Shown piece by piece: positions 1 through 42,617 of a stretch of 64,000 nucleotides of DNA. The stretch covers positions 55,481 to 119,480 of the forward strand of contig JAVCCR010000032.1 of the NCBI GenBank assembly GCA_030765485.1, given 5' to 3'. Each line of letters begins with the position of its first letter. Position 1 is the first letter of the stretch. Source of the DNA: Candidatus Gygaella obscura (GTDB taxonomy: Bacteria; Omnitrophota; Gorgyraeia; Gygaellales; Gygaellaceae). Below the pieces are notes generated by a model, which saw nothing but the letters and a program-made list of their open reading frames with translations, was not told where the DNA came from and did no database searches. A program made the translations under genes and the position numbers.

Positions 1-206
1 GAATAAGGCGGGTTCTTTTAGAGAAAGCTGCAGCAGTGCCCAAAGAGGTGTGTCAATTGTGTTACGAGGCATTACTTTTGGCTCCGGTTTTAACAAGGAA
101 AGGGAATTTCAATCTTATTTCTGATGTTGAAGTCGGAGTTGAATTGTTAGAGGCTGCTTTTAAATCCGGTCTTATAAATGTAAGAATAAATAATGAAATT
201 GCTTGA
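1..206 (+). CDS. 3' end of methenyl-THF cyclohydrolase / formiminotransferase-cyclodeaminase-family protein (FchA-like), partial
   Basis: Frame-3 ORF enters from upstream and stops at TGA 204-206, overlapping the folD start. Its C-terminal ...GNFNLISDVEVGVELLEAAFKSGLINVRINNEIA resembles the cyclodeaminase/FchA C-terminus (GNxNxISD motif). It sits immediately upstream of folD-metVF, as in acetogen clusters. Confidence 0.45.
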   Translation, partial: IRRVLLEKAAAVPKEVCQLCYEALLLAPVLTRKGNFNLISDVEVGVELLEAAFKSGLINVRINNEIA

Positions 207-1029
207 AGGTAGAAAAATAGTTGATGGGATTAAATGCAGTTTAAAACAGGAGATTAAAGGTTTAAACCGAAAACCTGTTTTGGCTTGTGTTCAGCTGGGA
301 GACAATTCTTCGGTTTCAAGTTATATAAAATCACAGCAGAAATGCGCTAAGGATTTAGGAATTGAATATTGTTTGAAGTCCTTAGCGGCTCAAACCAGCC
401 AGGAGGATTTGATTGATACGATTACTGAACTTAATAACGACAGTAATATTAACGGTATAATTATCCAGCTTCCTTTGCCCGAACATATTGATGTAAGGAC
501 TGTATATATGGCGGTTTCTCCTGGTAAAGACGCAGAATCTATGCATCCGGAAAACCTAGGAAAGCTTTTCTTTTCTAGTACTAAAGTTTCTCCTTGCACG
601 GCTAGTGCAGTTGTAGAATTATTAAAATCAATCGATATCAAACTTTATGGTAAAGAGGTTGTTATCGTCGGGCACAGTCCCATATTAGGTAAGCCTTTAT
701 CTATTATGCTTTTGAATGAGTATGCCACAATCACAGTTTGTCATATTGCTACATTTGAAGCCGAGAAGTTGATATCTCATATAAAGCAGGCAGATATATT
801 AATTGTAGCTGTGGGTAAAGCGAATTTCATAAAAGCGGATTGGGTAAAAGAAGGTGCGGTAGTTATTGATGTGGGTATTAATAAGCTTGGCGATAAGATA
901 ATCGGAGATGTTGATTTTGATAATGTTTCTAAGAAAGCAAGCTTTATTACGCCTGTTCCCGGAGGGGTAGGGCCTTTAACCACGGCAATATTAATGCGCA
1001 ATCTAGTTACACTAGCAGGCAAGAAATGA
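193..1029 (+). CDS. folD: bifunctional methylene-THF dehydrogenase / methenyl-THF cyclohydrolase
   Basis: 278 aa. FolD-like throughout, with the Rossmann motif VVIVGHSPILGKP and C-terminal PVPGGVGPLTTAILMRNLV. Confidence 0.9.
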   Translation: MKLLEGRKIVDGIKCSLKQEIKGLNRKPVLACVQLGDNSSVSSYIKSQQKCAKDLGIEYCLKSLAAQTSQEDLIDTITELNNDSNINGIIIQLPLPEHIDVRTVYMAVSPGKDAESMHPENLGKLFFSSTKVSPCTASAVVELLKSIDIKLYGKEVVIVGHSPILGKPLSIMLLNEYATITVCHIATFEAEKLISHIKQADILIVAVGKANFIKADWVKEGAVVIDVGINKLGDKIIGDVDFDNVSKKASFITPVPGGVGPLTTAILMRNLVTLAGKK

Positions 1030-1685
1030 TAGTTACAAAGCAAAAGAGCTTACAAGATATATTAGCGGCATTAAAGAATAAAACCAATATTTTCATTATT
1101 GGTTGTGGGGAATGTGCAACGGCTTGCAAGACAGGCGGAGAAGAGGAAGTTAAAGCCTTAGCCAGCGAGTTATCTAAACATAAGAAGAATATTATTGGTT
1201 CTGTTATTCCTAAAGCTCCCTGTGTTGTTAGTCAGGTAAAAAGGGATTTATCTAAATTCCGTGTCGAGCTGGAAAAAACAGATTGTGTTTTAGTTATGGC
1301 CTGCGGTCTGGGTGTGCAGGCAGTCATAAAAAGTAAACGTTTTAACGGTAAAGTAGTTAGTTGCTGCGATACTTTATTTGCCGGATCAATGACTTCAGTA
1401 GGAGAATTTTTTGAATCCTGTTCTTCTTGTGGAGAGTGTGTTTTAAATATTACTGGTGGTCTTTGTCCTGTTACCAGGTGTCCGAAGTCATTATTGAACG
1501 GTCCCTGCGGCGGGGCAAAAAACGGGAAATGCGAAGTAGATAGAAACAACGATTGTGTTTGGATTTTGATCTACGAACGACTTAAAGAACTGGGTGAGTT
1601 GGATAATATTAAAAATTTTATCGAAGCAAAAAACCAGCGTAAGAATTTACGCCCTGGAAGTAGGTCTTTAAAAAAAGATAATTAA
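1026..1685 (+). CDS. metV: MTHFR C-terminal-domain-like zinc-finger protein (MetV-type partner of MetF)
   Basis: 219 aa and Cys-rich (GCGECATAC, CSSCGEC, CPVTRCP, NGPCGG). Its start overlaps the folD stop (ATGA) and it sits immediately upstream of metF, as in acetogen metVF operons. Confidence 0.75.
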   Translation: MIVTKQKSLQDILAALKNKTNIFIIGCGECATACKTGGEEEVKALASELSKHKKNIIGSVIPKAPCVVSQVKRDLSKFRVELEKTDCVLVMACGLGVQAVIKSKRFNGKVVSCCDTLFAGSMTSVGEFFESCSSCGECVLNITGGLCPVTRCPKSLLNGPCGGAKNGKCEVDRNNDCVWILIYERLKELGELDNIKNFIEAKNQRKNLRPGSRSLKKDN

Positions 1686-1687
1686 AT

Positions 1688-2557
1688 ATGAGTAAATTAG
1701 AAACAGCTTTTAAGAATAAAAAATTTGCGGTTACCAGCGAGATTGGACCGCCCAAGGGGATTTTGTTTGAACAGATTTTAATGGATAACATTTCTTTAAG
1801 GGGGCGTGTGGATGCAATTAATGTTACTGATCTTCAGAGTTCGGTTATGCGTTTAGGCTCTTTGGCATTTTCTAAAATTCTTTTAGACAACGCAATAGAA
1901 CCGGTTTTTCAGCTTACCTGTAGAGATAGAAATAGACTTGCTCTACAGTCAGATCTTTTAAGCGCTGCAGTCTTGGGTATTGAAAATGTATTATTGTTAA
2001 CAGGCGATCATCCTATTCTAGGTGATCATCCTCAGGCAAAGGCTGTTTATGATTTAGACAGTGTTCAGCTTTTAGATTGTGCAAGAAAACTTACCAACGG
2101 AGTTGATCTTTGTGGTAATAAGCTTAAAGGTTCTCCTAAGTTGTTTTTAGGGGCTGTTGTTAATCCGGGGGTGGAAACTCTTGATCTAGAGTTGTTGAAG
2201 ATGGAAAAGAAGATTAAAGCAGGTGCACAGTTTTTCCAGACTCAGGCAGTTTATGATATGGATTCTTTCGATAGGTTTATGAAAAAAGCCAAGACCTTTA
2301 ATGTCCCGATAATGGCGGGGATAGTGCTTTTAAAATCTGTTAATATGGCTAAATATCTAAATGATAATGTTGCTGGTATAAATGTCCCCGAAGCACTAAT
2401 TAAACGTATGGAGAAGTCAACGGATAAGGTCAAGACTTCAATAGATATAGCTACAGAGCTTATAAATAATCTAAAAAGTAATTGCCAGGGTGTTCATATC
2501 ATGCCCATTGGTTGGGATAAGTATGTAGTGTCGCTTTTGGATCAAGCCGGTTTATAA
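1688..2557 (+). CDS. metF: 5,10-methylene-THF reductase
   Basis: 289 aa MTHFR-family TIM-barrel protein with acetogen-type MetF length and context, following metV. Confidence 0.85.
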   Translation: MSKLETAFKNKKFAVTSEIGPPKGILFEQILMDNISLRGRVDAINVTDLQSSVMRLGSLAFSKILLDNAIEPVFQLTCRDRNRLALQSDLLSAAVLGIENVLLLTGDHPILGDHPQAKAVYDLDSVQLLDCARKLTNGVDLCGNKLKGSPKLFLGAVVNPGVETLDLELLKMEKKIKAGAQFFQTQAVYDMDSFDRFMKKAKTFNVPIMAGIVLLKSVNMAKYLNDNVAGINVPEALIKRMEKSTDKVKTSIDIATELINNLKSNCQGVHIMPIGWDKYVVSLLDQAGL

Positions 2558-2559
2558 TT

Positions 2560-3429
2560 ATGAAAATTTTAATTATTGGTAGTTCTGCTGCGGGTATTGA
2601 AGCTGCAGCGATGATCAGTTCTTCAGATAGGACGCATGAAGTTACTATAGTCAGCGAAGAGGCTGTTTTGCCTTATTATAGATTTAAACTTGCCGAGTTT
2701 ATTTTTATTAAAGAAGCGGGAAATGGATTCTATTTTAAAGATAAAGAATTTTTCGAAAAGAACAATCTAAAACTTTTGTTAAATAAGAAAGCCATAGGCC
2801 TGGACACAAGAAAAAGAAGGGTAAGGCTAGACGATAATACTTATATTGATTTTGACAGGCTTTTGGTTGCTACGGGAGCTAATTGTGTATTGCCGCAGAT
2901 AAAAGGAACAAATAAAAAGAATGTTTATGGACTTAGGAGTTATTCTGATGCCGAAGAAATAAAAAAGAATCTACCGATTGCCAGTACTGTATTTTTAACA
3001 GGTAACGAAATGTACCTGCGGGATATGGCTTTAAAGTTGAGCCTGCAGAAAAAAGAAGTATTTTTAGTTACTACAAATAATAATCTGGTAGCAGATATTG
3101 AAGAAAACGAGAATTTGAGGTTTATGCTTGAGGATGAAATATTGGAGATAATCGGAGAGTCACAGATACAGGCGGTTAAGCTTAAAAGCAATAAGGTTAT
3201 GGCATGTTCATTATTAGTTTATAATGGTAATTTTAAATCTAATATAAATTTTTTGAAAGGTTCGCCAGTAGAATTATCCGATGGAGTAATTGTAGATGAG
3301 AATATGCGCACCAATTTGGATTTTATTTTTGCTGCCGGCGATGTAGTTGTAATTGACGAGACGAGAAAACGCACCTGGGATAATGCAATCGAGCAGGGCA
3401 GAAAGGCCGGTTTGTCAATATTATTATAG
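2560..3429 (+). CDS. FAD-dependent pyridine-nucleotide-disulfide-oxidoreductase-like flavoprotein with degenerate NAD(P) site and no redox CxxxxC
   Basis: 289 aa. N-terminal IIGSSAAGIEAA is a dinucleotide (FAD) motif and the FAAGDVV FAD motif sits near the C-terminus. The central second Rossmann region reads VFLTGNEMYL, so it lacks GxGxxG. Confidence 0.5.
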   Translation: MKILIIGSSAAGIEAAAMISSSDRTHEVTIVSEEAVLPYYRFKLAEFIFIKEAGNGFYFKDKEFFEKNNLKLLLNKKAIGLDTRKRRVRLDDNTYIDFDRLLVATGANCVLPQIKGTNKKNVYGLRSYSDAEEIKKNLPIASTVFLTGNEMYLRDMALKLSLQKKEVFLVTTNNNLVADIEENENLRFMLEDEILEIIGESQIQAVKLKSNKVMACSLLVYNGNFKSNINFLKGSPVELSDGVIVDENMRTNLDFIFAAGDVVVIDETRKRTWDNAIEQGRKAGLSILL

Positions 3430-3488: not shown

Positions 3489-5552
3489 ATGACAGATTTA
3501 AAATCAAGTTTACAAAAATTATCATTACTTTTAAAAGAAGACGTAGGTATATTGTTTAATAGCGATATATCAGAAAAATACGATGAAAATTTTTCATTTA
3601 AGGATATGGAAAATGCCTTTCCTTTGATCTGTGCTTTTTTTGGTAAGCGTATTTCTAGTTTTAGACAGCTGCGGAGTGCGTTAAATAAAATATCTCTTTT
3701 GCAAGATAAGGTAACAAACAGCGATAAAAAAATAAAAGAATCCGAGTACATCAGAAGACTTGGTTTGGTTATTTTATTTTATGAAGAGATAAAGATTTAT
3801 TTCGATGCTTTATCAAAAAGAAGGAATTTGGAAAGCATTTTGTTTAGCGATACACATATCAGAAAACTCGGTATAGCTTTATTGGATAAGAGCATAAGTG
3901 GATTTATTGTCTTTGTTGGAAGTGTAAATAAAAGTTCTAGCAGGGATGTTTTCTTAACGGATGCAGCCAAAAGGAAGTTAATAGTTTTTGATGACGCGTA
4001 TAAAACAGTTCAGTGCCTTATTAGGTTAAGTTTTATGTTTGGTTGTCAGAATAAAAAAGATTGGAAGTCTGTGTGTGATTACTGCAGGTCTAGTCTGCCT
4101 GCTGTAACTGTTTTATTAGATAATTTTAAAGAAATTGATTTAGCACAGGCCTGTGGAGCCTTAAATCTATCTGTTCCTATTATTACCAATAAAAGGTCAT
4201 TAAAGGTTAGGTATAGTAAGATTAAAAACGGTTACGATGCATTTATTAATATTAAAGAATCTGCTGTAATTATAGATAAGGTTGTAGAGGCAAGGAATAT
4301 TAAATTTGTTCCGGATTTGAGCCGTTTTCCAGTTGGTTTCGGTACAAAGTTTGAAGGGCAGATTATAAAAGATAAAGATTCTTTTATTGATTTTTCTCTT
4401 GGGTCTGCATGTGAGTTATTAGTAAATAGAAACCCTTCGCAGATCCGAGATGGCCAGATAGAAATTATTGGTAGCGATTTGGATAGTTTAAAAGCTGATG
4501 GATACAATAAAAGGCTTTTTATTTTAGTAGAGATGGTTACTAAAAGTGCCTCTAATGAATTTAATGCGGTTTTAGAACGTCAAATCCATAGATTTATTAA
4601 TTATATCGATGGTGTAACACATAGTGGACAAAGTGATTTTTTGAATATTTCAGTTAGTAGGAGTTCGTTTAGGAAGGGTTTAAGATTAAATGATATTGCT
4701 TTTTTTATTTATGCGATGATGCATAGGGAATATTCTAAAATTATAAATAAGATTCAAATAAAAATTATTACTGATAGAAAGCGTTTTGAAAAAGAATTAA
4801 GAAAATCCCGGGATATACACAGGACGCGTTTGGTAAAAGTTATCAATGAAACAGATGAATCCGTTAAAGAGTTTTATTCCTGTTCTATATGCCGCAGTTT
4901 TGCCTTAAATCATATATGTATTATTAGCCCTGAACATCCTGGTCTTTGCGGTTCTTATTCATTTCTTGATGCCAAGATTGCTTTTGAAATCGAGCCTTCA
5001 GGAGCAAATTATCCAATAAAAAAAGGAAAAGTTATTGATCGCAGGCTTGGACAGTGGCAAGGAGTGAATAGATACATTAAAAAAGTTACCAAAAATGCAG
5101 TTAAAAAAGTTAATCTTTATTCATTGATAGAATATCCGCATACCTGTTCTTTATGCTTTGAGTGTATTGTTGTAATCTTGCCGGAATTAAACGGTGTTAT
5201 GGTTGTGAGTAGAGATTATACTGGTAAAAATCCTCTTGGACTTGATTTTTCAAAATTGGCTCATCTATTGGGTTTTGGTGTTCAGTCTCCAGGAATGCTA
5301 GGTTCTAGCAGGGTTTTTCTATTAAGCAAAAAGTTTATGCCTCAAGAGGGGGGGGTAAAAAGAATTATTTGGATGCCCAGCAGTTTAAAGTATTTTTTGA
5401 CAAAGTATAATAAAGCAAGTCAAAAAAAGAGTAATTTAAAGAAAATATTCAGTAAGATTGCCGATGAGCATGATTGTACTTGCTTGGAGGATTTAGCAGA
5501 GTTTTTAAAGAAAAGAAAACACTCCTGTTTGAATATGAGCAGGATTATTTAA
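3489..5552 (+). CDS. acsB: acetyl-CoA synthase (CODH/ACS beta subunit, AcsB/CdhC family) homolog
   Basis: 687 aa. The C-terminal domain carries C465-x2-C468-x8-C477-x9-C487 (CSICRSFALNHICIISPEHPGLCG), the exact spacing of the A-cluster [4Fe-4S] ligands of ACS. About 66 residues downstream it has YPHTCSLCFECIV, where canonical ACS has TSCGCFE. The flanking similarity (PEHPGLCG, LYSLIEYP, GGVKRIIWMP) is ACS-like. Confidence 0.65.
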   Translation: MTDLKSSLQKLSLLLKEDVGILFNSDISEKYDENFSFKDMENAFPLICAFFGKRISSFRQLRSALNKISLLQDKVTNSDKKIKESEYIRRLGLVILFYEEIKIYFDALSKRRNLESILFSDTHIRKLGIALLDKSISGFIVFVGSVNKSSSRDVFLTDAAKRKLIVFDDAYKTVQCLIRLSFMFGCQNKKDWKSVCDYCRSSLPAVTVLLDNFKEIDLAQACGALNLSVPIITNKRSLKVRYSKIKNGYDAFINIKESAVIIDKVVEARNIKFVPDLSRFPVGFGTKFEGQIIKDKDSFIDFSLGSACELLVNRNPSQIRDGQIEIIGSDLDSLKADGYNKRLFILVEMVTKSASNEFNAVLERQIHRFINYIDGVTHSGQSDFLNISVSRSSFRKGLRLNDIAFFIYAMMHREYSKIINKIQIKIITDRKRFEKELRKSRDIHRTRLVKVINETDESVKEFYSCSICRSFALNHICIISPEHPGLCGSYSFLDAKIAFEIEPSGANYPIKKGKVIDRRLGQWQGVNRYIKKVTKNAVKKVNLYSLIEYPHTCSLCFECIVVILPELNGVMVVSRDYTGKNPLGLDFSKLAHLLGFGVQSPGMLGSSRVFLLSKKFMPQEGGVKRIIWMPSSLKYFLTKYNKASQKKSNLKKIFSKIADEHDCTCLEDLAEFLKKRKHSCLNMSRII

Positions 5553-12413: not shown

Positions 12414-13769
12414 ATGAATAAAATAGCGTTTGTTTTGTTAAGTTTTATTTTATGTTCTGTGTTTGCTTTTGCTCAAGAGGTTGAGGAAATCCGTATTGTT
12501 ACTTATTATCCTTCTCCTTACGGAAGTTATACAGAGTTACGCAGTAACAGGATGGCCATTGGAGATAATTATAGCGATGCTGGCACTTACCAATGGGGGA
12601 CTAATATTAACACTAATGCTGATTTAATTGTTCAGCAAAATGTTGGAATTGGAACATCTAACCCCGATGCCCCGCTATCTTTTGCAAATTCATTAGGTGA
12701 TAAAATCCAACTTTATGATAATGGTAGTTTTACTACGTATGGTTTTGGTGTACAAAGTAATAACCTGCAATTATTGACTACCGATCATACTACGGATATT
12801 ACTTTTAATTATGGTTTTAGTGCTTCTGCTACGGAATTGATGAGGATAAAGGGTAATGGCAATGTCGGTATCGGAATCACGAATCCAACTGAAAAGTTAT
12901 ACGTAAACGGGAATGCCATAATTGGCAGTAGTAATGTCGATGCTACTCTTAATGGGGAGGGAGTGTTTCAGTCAAGCAGTAATTTAGCTGGGGCTGGGTT
13001 TATAGCTACTCCTTGGGTGTATGCACGAGCAATAGAAGGAGATCAAAGAGGATCTGGCTCTACTCTTATTACAATTGGTGGTAAAAATGGCTTTACCAGT
13101 GATGATGAAATTGGTTTAGTAACAAACGGAAAACTAAAAATGCTTATGGATTCAAATGGGTTAGTGACTTTTTTTGGTTTGCATTCTACTTCTCCAGGGA
13201 ATCTCGTATTTAATCAGGATAGTCAGGGTGATTTTGAGACTGATATTAATTTTGATTCTAGCGGGCGTATTGCTGGAGAGAGTGATATTTTTCGTGTTGC
13301 AAGCAAAGGAACTCACGATTTACGTTTAGCAACGAATTCAGTAGATGATAAAGTTACTATTAGAAATTCAGGTATGGTTGGTATCTTGGATACGACCCCC
13401 AGTTATACTTTAGATGTTAACGGTACTTTTAGGGCGTTTGGTATTACTGATTCATCAGATATAAGATGGAAGAAAAATATAACTAATCTCGAGACTCCTT
13501 TAGATAAACTTGCTAAGCTTAGGGGAGTAAGGTATCAGTGGAATCAAGAAGCCTATCCCGATAAGAATTTTGCTCCAGGTATGCAGATTGGTATTATTGC
13601 CCAAGAGCTCGAAGAGCAATATCCTGAGTTGGTGGACATAGATAGTGATGGCTATAAATCAATTCAATATGGAAAATTAACTGCTGTATTATTAGAGGGG
13701 ATCAAAGAGTTAAAACAAGAAAATGATATTTTAAAACAAAGAATCGCATCTTTGGAAGAAAATTTTTAG
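12414..13769 (+). CDS. secreted fibre-like protein with C-terminal intramolecular chaperone (peptidase S74 / endosialidase-chaperone-like) domain
   Basis: Signal peptide MNKIAFVLLSFILCSVFAFA. Repeated GNVGIGTxNPxxxLxV-type motifs typical of tail-fibre stalks. The C-terminal ~110 aa (DIRWKKNITNLETPLDKLAKLRGVRYQWN...GIIAQELEEQYPELV...YGKLTAVLLEGIKELKQE) match the self-cleaving chaperone domain of phage tail fibres and tailspikes. Confidence 0.6.
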   Translation: MNKIAFVLLSFILCSVFAFAQEVEEIRIVTYYPSPYGSYTELRSNRMAIGDNYSDAGTYQWGTNINTNADLIVQQNVGIGTSNPDAPLSFANSLGDKIQLYDNGSFTTYGFGVQSNNLQLLTTDHTTDITFNYGFSASATELMRIKGNGNVGIGITNPTEKLYVNGNAIIGSSNVDATLNGEGVFQSSSNLAGAGFIATPWVYARAIEGDQRGSGSTLITIGGKNGFTSDDEIGLVTNGKLKMLMDSNGLVTFFGLHSTSPGNLVFNQDSQGDFETDINFDSSGRIAGESDIFRVASKGTHDLRLATNSVDDKVTIRNSGMVGILDTTPSYTLDVNGTFRAFGITDSSDIRWKKNITNLETPLDKLAKLRGVRYQWNQEAYPDKNFAPGMQIGIIAQELEEQYPELVDIDSDGYKSIQYGKLTAVLLEGIKELKQENDILKQRIASLEENF

Positions 13770-33291: not shown

Positions 33292-33546
33292 ATGTTTGGT
33301 CCTTTGACAGCAAAACCAGGTTCAAGTCAAAATAACAAGACAGGTTCTTGGAGGATTAAAGCAAGGCCTAAATTCTTAAAAAAAGAATGCATTGGTTGCA
33401 AGCTTTGTAGTTTAGTTTGTCCGGAAGGCTGCATCACAGGAACTGATAAGGATTCAATCAAGTGTGATCTTGATTATTGTAAAGGCTGCGGTTTATGTGT
33501 AAAGATTTGTCCTAAAAAAGATATTGTAATGGAAGAGGAAAAATGA
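33292..33546 (+). CDS. porD: pyruvate:ferredoxin oxidoreductase delta subunit (2x[4Fe-4S] ferredoxin)
   Basis: 84 aa with two CxxCxxCxxxCP motifs. Confidence 0.85.
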   Translation: MFGPLTAKPGSSQNNKTGSWRIKARPKFLKKECIGCKLCSLVCPEGCITGTDKDSIKCDLDYCKGCGLCVKICPKKDIVMEEEK

Positions 33547-42545: not shown

Positions 42546-42617
42546 TGCCCGGTAGTGTAATTGGTAACACACGAGAATTTGGGTCTCGCTTTTCTGGTTC
42601 GAGTCCAGACCGGGCAG
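42546..42617 (+). tRNA. tRNA-Gln (anticodon UUG)
   Basis: Cloverleaf folded by hand: acceptor TGCCCGG/CCGGGCA (U1-A72, discriminator G), D-stem GTGT/ACAC, anticodon stem CGAGA/TCTCG with loop ATTTGGG, T-stem TCTGG/CCAGA with loop TTCGAGT. CCA is not encoded. Confidence 0.8.

What the first reader, a model, noticed from the sequence alone, without database searches (positions are those of the whole stretch)
2560..3429. Degenerate NADH-oxidase-like flavoprotein as a candidate electron-transfer partner of MetVF
A 289-aa pyridine-nucleotide-disulfide-oxidoreductase-like protein is tightly coupled downstream of metF. It keeps the N-terminal FAD motif and the C-terminal FAAGD motif. Its central NAD(P)H-binding Rossmann motif is degenerate (VFLTGNEMYL instead of GxGxxG) and it has no redox-active disulfide. 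MetF electron donors vary between lineages (Hdr/Mvh-like, Rnf-like, NADH-dependent) and are an open question. A truncated flavoprotein here may be a novel adaptor.
Basis: inference. Interest (0 to 1): 0.5.

Follow-up and report, generated by a model that had tools for sequence, protein, structure and literature searches.

The report
Truncated flavoprotein tied to acetyl-CoA synthase
The 289-residue gene is real and has lost its NAD(P)H site, but it is a cut-down descendant of a flavoprotein that normally accompanies CO dehydrogenase, and in related bacteria it is fused to acetyl-CoA synthase, so that enzyme, not MetVF, is its likelier partner.

Summary
Observation confirmed. ORF 2560-3429 (+) encodes a 289-aa Pyr_redox_2 protein, 2 nt after metF. 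All FAD motifs are intact. The NAD(P)H motif is ruined (G-N-E-M-Y-L), no catalytic Cys is present, and the ~130-aa C-terminal domain is missing. The AF2 model is confident (pLDDT 95.5) and matches ferredoxin and rubredoxin reductases.

The window is Ca. Gygaella obscura (Omnitrophota). Related genomes show one collinear locus in several states:
1. metF-cooC-cooS-ferredoxin-FNOR (~430 aa, intact NAD site)-acsB.
2. metF-short protein-acsB (21 loci, including this window).
3. Short protein fused in frame to AcsB (9 clusters, down to 58% identity).
4. AcsB carrying only the degenerate central domain (111 clusters).

So the protein derives from the CODH-associated FNOR. Its adjacency to metF follows from loss of cooC-cooS-fdx. 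The gene-fusion evidence links it to acetyl-CoA synthase. No MetF or MetV fusions were found, and MetF does not co-vary with the protein's state. Three loci do keep metF plus the short protein without acsB, so a MetF role is not excluded.

It is under purifying selection (dN/dS about 0.13). I rate it a new variant of a known kind, of moderate interest, with its biochemical function untested. The adjacent AcsB-like gene here is itself aberrant (Cys-Gly-Cys replaced by Cys-Ser-Leu-Cys).

The parts
2560..3429 (+). 289-aa truncated, NAD(P)H-blind FNOR-derived flavoprotein ('FPshort'). It has an FAD domain in two segments plus a degenerate central domain, and no C-terminal domain.
   Evidence: ORF. 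Pfam PF07992 E 2e-33. AF2 pLDDT 95.5, pTM 0.92. Foldseek against TodA, PdR, AorC and CoADR gives TM(query) 0.85-0.90. dN/dS 0.13.
2578..2595 (+). FAD dinucleotide-binding motif G7-S-S-A-A-G12 (a GxSxxG variant shared with full-length Omnitrophota FNORs).
   Evidence: Alignments.
2890..3246 (+). Central, formerly NAD(P)H-binding, domain (about residues 111-229). This is the part that survives as the N-terminal extension of AcsB in other Omnitrophota.
   Evidence: BLASTP of the P0339 N-terminus against window residues 111-221: 28% identity, E 3e-9. Against fusion P0274: E 6e-12. The same conserved residues appear in alignments A4 and A5.
3001..3018 (+). Degenerate NAD(P)H motif G148-N-E-M-Y-L153, where relatives have G-G-G-L-I-G.
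3328..3342 (+). F257-A-A-G-D261, the FAD 'GD' motif. It is retained in the window clade and lost in most other short forms.
1688..2557 (+). metF (methylene-THF reductase, acetogen-like short type), 2 nt upstream of the flavoprotein.
   Evidence: Pfam PF02219 E 6e-40. 57-79% identical to MetF at the same locus in all other states.
1026..1685 (+). metV (DUF5981, Cys-rich). It overlaps the folD stop. At this locus it is present only in the Gygaella clade.
   Evidence: Pfam PF12225 E 2e-34. tblastn finds MetV only in the window, L001/L004 and L057.
193..1029 (+). folD (methylene-THF dehydrogenase/cyclohydrolase).
   Evidence: Pfam PF00763 and PF02882.
3489..5552 (+). Divergent AcsB-like gene (687 aa), 59 nt downstream. 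It is the likely partner inferred from fusions in relatives.
   Evidence: Pfam PF03598 and PF19436, but no PF18537. NCBIfam 559 bits against a cut-off of 800. Alignment to PDB ACS covers only residues 172-685. Only one close relative exists.
5145..5156 (+). C-S-L-C at the position where all other AcsB examined have S-C-G-C (the Cys-Gly-Cys that ligates the distal Ni of the A-cluster).

Best explanation
What it is. The gene encodes a stand-alone member of an Omnitrophota-specific lineage derived from FNOR. FNOR is the FAD/NAD(P)H oxidoreductase that accompanies Ni-CO dehydrogenase (CooS) and a CooF-like ferredoxin inside acs operons.

How it arose. In this lineage cooC, cooS and the ferredoxin gene were lost from the locus, which brought the gene next to metF. 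The protein also lost its NAD(P)H site, its Cys42-like residue and its C-terminal partner-docking domain.

What remains and what it most likely does. What remains is an FAD domain plus a degenerate central domain. The protein most likely works as an accessory subunit of acetyl-CoA synthase (AcsB), attached through or near the AcsB N-terminus. Its central domain is the part that selection keeps.

Redox role. In the window's own clade all FAD motifs are intact, so it probably still binds FAD. Any redox role must therefore use a protein partner (ferredoxin, MetV or ACS) and not NAD(P)H.

Shown versus inferred. Shown: the anatomy, the origin, the synteny series, the fusions and the purifying selection. 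Inferred: physical binding to AcsB in this organism, FAD occupancy, and whether the role is structural or regulatory (my preference) or one-electron (re)activation of the A-cluster.
For: Origin.
- The closest full-length homologue (P0005, 35% identity, 431 aa) lies in a collinear locus: fhs-fchA-folD-...-metF-cooC-cooS-fdx-FNOR-acsB-TPR-polA-glgA-coaE-rho.
- Fifteen further loci show cooS-fdx-FNOR-acsB.
- In an NJ tree the short forms are one clade beside the Omnitrophota FNORs.
- Intermediates exist: L008 is metF-fdx-FNOR-acsB and L072 is metF-FNOR-acsB.

ACS link.
- Eighteen of 21 short-form loci have acsB immediately downstream, often overlapping.
- There are in-frame FPshort::AcsB fusions in L033 and in 9 distinct 90%-identity clusters, 1014-1030 aa, that have diverged to 58% identity.
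- 111 of the 120 best hits to the fusion are AcsB carrying only the central domain at the N-terminus. They lie at the same chromosomal locus directly after metF.
- The residues conserved in the fused domains are the same ones conserved in the stand-alone short forms.
- In an AF2 model the fused extension is a discrete folded domain.

Loss of enzyme features is documented.

Selection. dN/dS is 0.13, close to FolD (0.08) and PolA (0.09).

Literature.
- FNOR is a recognised but biochemically unstudied CODH partner (PMC6344411).
- Many Omnitrophota have a partial Wood-Ljungdahl pathway lacking AcsA and CooS/F (PMC10066038).
- Gygaella is not credited with the pathway (PMC8542988).
Against: - The fusions occur in a different subclade, the one that has lost the 'GD' Asp, and not in the window's clade. 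The inference reaches this protein only by homology of 30-35% identity.
- The window's own AcsB-like partner is highly aberrant, so what holds for canonical AcsB may not hold here.
- Three loci (L021, L052, L084) keep metF plus the short protein after losing acsB.
- AF2 gives no confident docking of the fused domain onto ACS (pTM 0.44, flexible linker).
- No genome-wide check that cooS is absent from G. obscura could be made.
- The tree is a simple NJ tree with long branches.
Confidence: 0.5

Rival explanations
1. The protein is a flavin-containing electron-transfer partner of MetF or MetVF. It would feed electrons from a non-pyridine-nucleotide donor to methylene-THF reduction, or take them in the oxidative direction.
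For: - It follows metF in 21 of 21 short-form loci, mostly with 1-7 nt spacing.
- metF plus the short protein persist together where acsB is lost (L021, L052, L084).
- All FAD motifs are intact in the window clade.
- The physiological donor of type II MetVF enzymes is unresolved, and flavoprotein genes such as lpdA sit next to metVF in clostridia (PMC8760232).
Against: - The adjacency is explained by deletion of cooC-cooS-fdx between metF and FNOR.
- MetV is absent from the locus in all but the Gygaella clade.
- No MetF or MetV fusions appear in any hit list, whereas AcsB fusions are abundant.
- In 111 clusters the flavin domain is gone altogether, yet MetF is unchanged at 57-79% identity.
- The FAD 'GD' Asp is lost in most short forms.
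Confidence: 0.2
2. A bridging scaffold. The protein contacts both MetF and AcsB and holds the end of the methyl branch and ACS together in CODH-less Omnitrophota.
For: It is tightly coupled or overlapping on both sides, as metF-FP-acsB. This order is invariant across states 2-4 of the locus.
Against: - Methyl transfer from CH3-THF to ACS needs AcsE and the corrinoid protein, which are not at this locus.
- There is no direct evidence for any contact.
- Gene order alone is equally explained by ancestry.
Confidence: 0.12
3. A decaying relic with no function, caught on its way to loss in an eroding Wood-Ljungdahl cluster.
For: - The G. obscura cluster is eroded. fhs is missing, no cooS or cooC lies in the 64 kb, and the AcsB-like gene is divergent with an altered Ni site.
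- Catalytic motifs are lost.
- FAD motifs erode across the family.
Against: - The ORF is intact in more than 60 clusters, counting 50%- and 90%-identity clusters.
- dN/dS is 0.13.
- The sequence is identical on 14 contigs.
- The AF2 model is highly confident.
- The fusions are stable down to 58% identity.
Confidence: 0.06
4. It is still an NAD(P)H-dependent oxidoreductase that binds the nucleotide in a non-canonical way.
For: The central beta-alpha-beta fold is retained. One short subclade has a GxGxxA pattern (L005, L009, L018, L019).
Against: - In the window the second and third Gly are Glu and Leu.
- There is a 12-20-residue deletion after beta-2.
- There is no Cys42 equivalent and no C-terminal domain.
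- In derived forms the same domain survives without any flavin domain.
Confidence: 0.05

Closest known systems
CODH-associated FNOR: the FAD-dependent NAD(P) oxidoreductase (COG1251) of cooS-cooF-FNOR clusters (Geelhoed 2016, PMC4703632; Inoue 2019, PMC6344411)
   Same: Same protein family and, in Omnitrophota, the same chromosomal position upstream of acsB. It shares the GxSxxG FAD motif, the ATG and GD motifs and the overall two-domain fold.
   Different: It lacks the NAD(P)H GxGxxG, the conserved Cys at position 42, the C-terminal (Rubredoxin_C-type) domain and the neighbouring cooS and ferredoxin genes.
FAD subunits of ferredoxin-module enzymes: AorC of tungsten aldehyde oxidoreductase (PDB 8c0z chain E) and PadH of phenylglyoxylate dehydrogenase (NF045765)
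   Same: PadH is the best NCBIfam match (E 2.5e-35). AorC is among the top sequence and structure hits. Both are flavoprotein subunits that plug into a larger metalloenzyme complex.
   Different: Those subunits reduce NAD+ and keep their NAD site and C-terminal domain. The window protein scores 122 bits against a cut-off of 475 for PadH.
Ferredoxin, rubredoxin and putidaredoxin reductases (TodA 3ef6/4emi, PdR 1q1r, 3fg2, C. acetobutylicum NirB-family 3klj, P. furiosus 1xhc)
   Same: The fold of the FAD and central domains matches: TM(query) 0.85-0.90, 15-24% identity.
   Different: TM(target) is only about 0.6 because the C-terminal domain that helps dock the iron-sulfur partner is missing. 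There is no NAD(H) site.
NAD(P)H-independent thioredoxin-reductase-like flavoproteins (ferredoxin-dependent FFTR, DDOR). Cited from my own knowledge, not checked here.
   Same: Same concept: a two-dinucleotide-domain flavoprotein that has lost pyridine-nucleotide binding and relies on a protein redox partner.
   Different: They belong to a different subfamily (TrxR type) and keep a redox-active CxxC and a defined substrate. The window protein has neither.
lpdA (dihydrolipoamide dehydrogenase) next to metVF in clostridial Wood-Ljungdahl clusters, and RnfC2 or HdrABC-MvhD partners of MetVF (PMC8760232)
   Same: A flavoprotein gene directly downstream of metVF in a Wood-Ljungdahl cluster. The donor question is open.
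   Different: LpdA is a class I enzyme with a CxxxxC disulfide, an NAD site and a dimerisation domain. RnfC2 and Hdr are unrelated folds. None of these features is present here.

Membership tests
Two-dinucleotide-binding-domain flavoproteins (Pfam Pyr_redox_2, PF07992) | Significant match to the family profile over the FAD and central domains | tested here: met
   E 2.1e-33, 116 bits against a cut-off of 26, residues 1-280. Foldseek probability 1.00 to many members.
Two-dinucleotide-binding-domain flavoproteins (Pfam Pyr_redox_2, PF07992) | FAD-binding motifs: N-terminal GxGxxG-type, acidic residue at the end of beta-2, ATG and GD | tested here: met
   G7-S-S-A-A-G12, E33/E34, A104-T-G106 and G260-D261 are all present. 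Actual flavin binding was not tested.
Two-dinucleotide-binding-domain flavoproteins (Pfam Pyr_redox_2, PF07992) | Second GxGxxG/A for NAD(P)H in the central domain | tested here: not met
   G148-N-E-M-Y-L153, with Pfam PF00070 below its cut-off (21.4 against 22) and matching only the N-terminus.
CODH-associated FNOR (COG1251-type, cooS-cooF-FNOR) | Gene adjacent to cooS and a CooF-like ferredoxin | tested here: not met
   No cooS or cooC anywhere in the 64-kb window, and no ferredoxin gene adjoins the ORF; the only weak match to the 64-aa ferredoxin lies about 30 kb away at 33373-33543. The feature is met for full-length positional homologues in at least 15 loci.
CODH-associated FNOR (COG1251-type, cooS-cooF-FNOR) | Full length of about 400-450 aa with a C-terminal Rubredoxin_C or Reductase_C domain and an intact NAD(P)H site | tested here: not met
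   289 aa, no PF18267 or PF14759, degenerate motif.
CODH-associated FNOR (COG1251-type, cooS-cooF-FNOR) | Descent from the FNOR clade (phylogeny and conserved chromosomal position) | tested here: met
   The NJ tree places the short forms beside the Omnitrophota FNORs. The loci are collinear. This is a simple tree and needs confirmation.
   Phe42 in the window. The Cys is conserved in full-length FNORs but lost in all short forms.
   CoADR 92 bits against 458-579; Nox 69 bits against 600.
Class I disulfide reductases (LpdA, as found next to metVF in clostridia) | CxxxxC redox disulfide and a C-terminal dimerisation domain | tested here: not met
   Only C109 and C216. No Pyr_redox_dim match. Lipoamide dehydrogenase scores 28 bits against 409.
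Known MetVF partner subunits (RnfC2; HdrABC-MvhD) | Homology to RnfC or Hdr/Mvh proteins | tested here: not met
   No such Pfam or NCBIfam hits for this ORF or for any gene of the cluster.
Known MetVF partner subunits (RnfC2; HdrABC-MvhD) | Physical complex with MetVF | not testable with these tools
   Needs co-purification or multimer modelling. Only gene adjacency is available.
FNOR-derived N-terminal module of Omnitrophota AcsB (family proposed here) | Homology of the central domain to the N-terminal extension of 839-871-aa AcsB proteins and to FPshort::AcsB fusions | tested here: met
   E 3e-9 and 6e-12. Same conserved residues. All 120 long AcsB proteins examined contain the domain.
FNOR-derived N-terminal module of Omnitrophota AcsB (family proposed here) | Position between metF and acsB at the conserved locus | tested here: met
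   Window and 17 other loci.
FNOR-derived N-terminal module of Omnitrophota AcsB (family proposed here) | Physical association with AcsB when encoded separately | not testable with these tools
   Inferred from the fusions only.

The most novel reading that the evidence does not exclude
In Omnitrophota that have lost CO dehydrogenase, the FNOR-derived module has been recruited as a replacement partner of acetyl-CoA synthase. It occurs free as here, fused, or reduced to its central domain. It would occupy or guard the N-terminal, CODH-facing side of ACS. Where FAD is retained, it would supply the single electron needed to (re)activate the Ni-Ni-[4Fe4S] A-cluster. This would define a previously unrecognised CODH-independent form of ACS.
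Probability: 0.2. Interest if true: 0.8.

Novelty: new variant of a known kind. Interest (0 to 1): 0.55.

Why it matters
Acetyl-CoA synthase is normally studied as a tight complex with CO dehydrogenase. Omnitrophota are reported to carry ACS without any CODH (PMC10066038), and how such an ACS is supplied, activated or stabilised is unknown.

The series of states at one locus gives a concrete, testable candidate for an ACS accessory module:
1. Full FNOR.
2. Truncated NAD(P)H-blind protein.
3. Fusion to AcsB.
4. Central domain only.

It is also a clear example of an enzyme turning into a non-catalytic domain.

For the MetF donor question the result is mainly cautionary. Adjacency to metF here is a by-product of gene loss, and MetF does not track the flavoprotein. 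On the annotation side, more than 100 AcsB clusters carry an unrecognised N-terminal domain, and the Gygaella 'ACS' should not be scored as a functional Wood-Ljungdahl enzyme without caution.

Tried and rejected
- cooS, cooC and CooF in the window. tblastn with the L002 proteins found no cooS or cooC. It found only a weak ferredoxin-like hit at 33373-33543.
- MetV in the other short-form loci. tblastn and inspection of ORFs in the folD-metF gaps found none; the gaps hold unrelated ORFs.
- Pseudogene idea. Rejected on dN/dS, intact ORFs and the number of conserved homologues.
- LpdA, NADH oxidase or CoADR assignment. Rejected on motifs and NCBIfam scores.
- RNA features. An Rfam scan of the window found only one tRNA, at 42546-42617.
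- Pfam survey of ten downstream genes. Housekeeping genes only, no further Wood-Ljungdahl genes.
- PDB sequence search for MetV gave nothing. MetF matches only NAD(P)H-type MTHFRs weakly.
- AF2 of an 853-aa AcsB to see docking of the extension. Confidence was too low (pTM 0.44) to say anything beyond 'folded domain plus flexible linker'.
- The afdb50 fold library was unavailable.
- Literature searches for a described FNOR-AcsB fusion or an Omnitrophota MetF partner found nothing relevant.
- A search for the FFTR/DDOR papers did not return them, so that analogy is cited from memory.
- I could not scan whole genomes a second time, so the absence of cooS from G. obscura rests on the 64-kb window and on published descriptions only.
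Full report
**1. The observation**

It runs from ATG 2560 to the TAG stop at 3427-3429 on the + strand and encodes 289 aa. It starts 2 nt after the metF stop.

Upstream lie folD (193-1029), metV (1026-1685, Pfam DUF5981) and metF (1688-2557, Pfam MTHFR). An acetyl-CoA-synthase-like gene (3489-5552; Pfam CdhC plus ACS_CODH_B_C) follows after 59 nt.

The protein matches Pyr_redox_2 (E 2e-33). It falls far below the cut-off of every named NCBIfam enzyme model. The best is PadH at 122 bits against a cut-off of 475.

- The FAD motif G7-S-S-A-A-G12 and F257-A-A-G-D261 are present.
- The NAD(P)H motif reads G148-N-E-M-Y-L153, where relatives have G-G-G-L-I-G.
- About 12-20 residues after beta-2 of the central domain are deleted.
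- Only two, distant, cysteines exist.
- The ~130-aa C-terminal domain (PF18267/PF14759) of the 400-450-aa relatives is missing.

An AlphaFold2 model is very confident (pLDDT 95.5, pTM 0.92). It superposes on ferredoxin, putidaredoxin and rubredoxin reductases, on CoADR and on AorC. TM is 0.85-0.90 normalised to the query but about 0.6 normalised to the targets, which reflects the missing domain.

The identical protein is called on 14 contigs from several samples. NCBI names it 'NAD(P)/FAD-dependent oxidoreductase [Candidatus Gygaella obscura]', so the window is from an Omnitrophota bacterium.

**2. Where it comes from**

The nearest full-length homologue is P0005 (35% identity, 431 aa, intact GGGLIG). 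It lies in a relative whose locus is collinear with the window on both sides: fhs-fchA-folD-...-metF-cooC-cooS-ferredoxin(64 aa)-FNOR-acsB-TPR-polA-glgA-coaE-rho.

I scanned one genome per species and annotated the loci by tblastn. Fifteen loci in Omnitrophota and neighbouring phyla show cooS-fdx-FNOR-acsB. Firmicutes and others show the classical cooS-cooF-FNOR unit.

FNOR is a recognised but biochemically uncharacterised companion of Ni-CODH (PMC6344411; PMC4703632).

Short forms of 284-306 aa always lack a proper NAD(P)H site and the C-terminal domain. They occur in 21 distinct loci as metF-short protein(-acsB), with no cooS or ferredoxin gene.

Intermediates exist:
- metF-fdx-FNOR-acsB (L008).
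- metF-FNOR(401 aa)-acsB (L072).

In a neighbour-joining tree the short forms are one clade. It is sister to a small group of 346-421-aa forms with an intact NAD motif, and both sit beside the Omnitrophota FNORs. This is a simple method with long branches.

The gene is therefore a truncated FNOR. Its contact with metF arose when cooC-cooS-fdx were lost from between them.

**3. Is it alive?**

Yes. Against the 73%-identical orthologue (L001), dN/dS is about 0.13. The comparable values are FolD 0.08, PolA 0.09, MetF 0.06 and AcsB-like 0.23; dS is saturated.

A profile of the short forms finds 55 representatives of 335 aa or less at the 50%-identity level among the best 150 hits.

**4. Who is the partner?**

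*Points in favour of MetF*
- Every short form follows metF, mostly with 1-7 nt between the genes.
- Three loci (L021, L052, L084) keep metF plus the short protein although acsB is gone.

*Points in favour of ACS*
- In 18 of 21 loci acsB follows immediately, often overlapping.
- In L033 the short protein runs in frame into AcsB, giving a 1028-aa product.
- A search with a second such fusion (P0131) found 9 distinct clusters of 1014-1030-aa fusions. They carry both Pyr_redox_2 and ACS domains and have diverged to 58% identity, so the fusion is old and maintained.
- The other 111 of the 120 best hits are AcsB proteins of mostly 839-871 aa. Their N-terminal ~115 residues are homologous only to the central domain of the flavoprotein. 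Against window residues 111-221 the match is 28% identity, E 3e-9. Against the fusion it is E 6e-12. No FAD-domain segments remain.
- These long AcsB genes lie directly after metF at the same collinear locus.
- The residues conserved in the fused domain (P8, G9, K12, G14, V15, G40, E85, G88, E89, A94, K96, K101) correspond to those invariant in the free short forms (P112, G116, K119, V122, G148, E196, G199, E200, A205, K207, K212).
- An AF2 model of one 853-aa protein shows the extension as a separate folded beta-alpha-beta plus meander domain, joined by a flexible linker. Overall confidence (pTM 0.44) is too low to place it on ACS.

*Points against MetF*
- No MetF or MetV fusion appears in any hit list.
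- MetV is at the locus only in the Gygaella clade.
- MetF is 57-79% identical across all states and does not track the presence or absence of the flavin domain.
- The FAD 'GD' aspartate survives in only 19 of about 85 short or fused forms.

Selection therefore preserves the degenerate central domain in association with ACS, not a flavin next to MetF.

**5. How it most likely works**

The supported statement is that the family is an ACS-linked, NAD(P)H-independent, largely non-catalytic module descended from FNOR.

For the window protein itself, all five FAD motifs are intact. FAD binding is therefore likely, and a protein-to-protein redox role cannot be excluded.

My preferred mechanism is inferred, not shown. 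The protein binds at or near the N-terminal domain of the AcsB-like protein through its central domain, as a structural or regulatory subunit. That place became available when the CODH-CooF-FNOR unit was lost.

A more specific and more speculative version gives it the job of supplying the activating electron to the A-cluster of a CODH-less ACS.

The literature fits this picture:
- Seymour et al. report a 'partial WLP' lacking AcsA and CooS/F in V. archaeovorus and 24 species (PMC10066038).
- The paper that describes Ca. Gygaella obscura attributes Wood-Ljungdahl genes only to another genus (PMC8542988).

*Caveats*
- The fusions arose in a different subclade from the window's, so the link reaches this protein by homology at 30-35% identity.
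- The window's AcsB-like partner is aberrant (see section 6).
- I could not check the whole genome for cooS.

**6. The local cluster is eroded**
- In all 35 other AcsB sequences inspected the distal-Ni motif is S-C-G-C-F-E-C. In the window it is T-C-S-L-C-F-E-C, and in L001 it is T-C-S-A-C.
- Alignment to solved ACS structures shows this is a substitution without an indel: Ser594 to Cys, Cys595 to Ser, Gly596 to Leu.
- The first ~170 residues do not match the CODH-facing N-terminal domain.
- NCBI calls the protein 'hypothetical'. It has a single close relative, and everything else is 44% identical or less.
- On the G. obscura contig fhs is absent between rnhB and fchA, where the 73% relative still has it.

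**7. Comparison with known systems, and novelty**

The protein belongs to the Pyr_redox_2 superfamily and descends from FNOR. It fails the defining features of FNOR itself: the NAD site, the C-terminal domain and the cooS/cooF context. It also fails those of NADH oxidase/CoADR (the Cys) and of LpdA (the disulfide and the dimerisation domain). It is unrelated to the known MetVF partners RnfC2 and HdrABC-MvhD (PMC8760232).

The nearest concept is the NAD(P)H-independent TrxR-like flavoproteins. That comparison is from my own knowledge and was not verified here.

I found no paper describing the truncated lineage or the AcsB fusions. The long AcsB proteins are annotated simply as ACS.

**Verdict.** The best reading is an ACS-linked FNOR relic, which I rate a new variant of a known kind. 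Interest is moderate (0.55). It is higher if the module proves to be how Omnitrophota run ACS without CODH.

Noticed in passing
window 3489-5552 (motif at 5145-5156): The AcsB-like protein has Cys-Ser-Leu-Cys where all 35 other AcsB sequences examined have Ser-Cys-Gly-Cys, the ligands of the distal Ni of the A-cluster. It lacks a recognisable CODH-facing N-terminal domain. NCBI annotates it as 'hypothetical', and it has only one close relative (55% identity). It may not be a functional acetyl-CoA synthase.
   Followed up: partly
L085 6880-7159 (G. obscura contig), compared with L001 3463-5157: The formate-THF ligase gene (fhs) that sits between rnhB and fchA in the 73% relative is absent from the same place in G. 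obscura. Only a 280-nt AT-rich spacer remains. This is another sign that the Wood-Ljungdahl cluster is eroding here.
   Followed up: partly
L091/L092 8001-10562; L093 8001-10568; proteins P0276-P0387: More than 100 clusters of Omnitrophota AcsB (mostly 839-871 aa) carry an unannotated N-terminal ~115-residue domain derived from the central (ex-NAD) domain of FNOR. Databases label them plain ACS.
   Followed up: yes
L013, L023, L029, L035 (9992-14164), L054: This is the sister group of the short forms: 346-421-aa proteins with an intact NAD motif. They sit in fchA-folD-flavoprotein-(MetH activation-domain-like, 210 aa)-MetH(802 aa), with no metF or acsB within 10 kb. The flavoprotein thus occupies the slot where metF would be expected, next to methionine synthase.
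   Followed up: partly
L002, L015, L024, L031, L057, L058, L078, L081 and others: A 64-aa 2x[4Fe-4S] ferredoxin plus full-length FNOR are embedded inside acs operons (cooC-cooS-fdx-FNOR-acsB) in Omnitrophota and in MAGs labelled Elusimicrobia, Brocadiia, Armatimonadota, Thermotogae and Acidobacteriota. This suggests a pyridine-nucleotide link to CODH/ACS that is little discussed.
   Followed up: no
alignment of full-length FNORs, position 42 of the window protein: Full-length Omnitrophota FNORs conserve a Cys in Y-x-R-C-L, apparently at the position of the catalytic Cys of NADH oxidase and CoA-disulfide reductase (that equivalence is my reading, not tested by structural superposition). All short forms have lost it.
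   Followed up: partly
protein P0324: A 1318-aa AcsB carries intein-type domains (PF14528, PF14890). This is an intein inserted in acetyl-CoA synthase.
   Followed up: no
proteins P0404, P0412, P0421, P0423: AcsB proteins of 929-1203 aa are fused to a PF03599 domain. P0421 is a partial sequence.
   Followed up: no
window 12414-13769: A 451-aa protein after rho has a C-terminal Peptidase_S74 domain (endosialidase / tail-fibre intramolecular chaperone). It is conserved at the same place on other G. obscura contigs.
   Followed up: no
window 1026-1685, compared with other loci: metV is present at this locus only in the Gygaella clade. The closest other copy found lies in an Elusimicrobia-labelled MAG (L057, 39% identity). 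All other Omnitrophota loci examined have metF without metV, so the electron donor of their MetF is also unexplained.
   Followed up: partly
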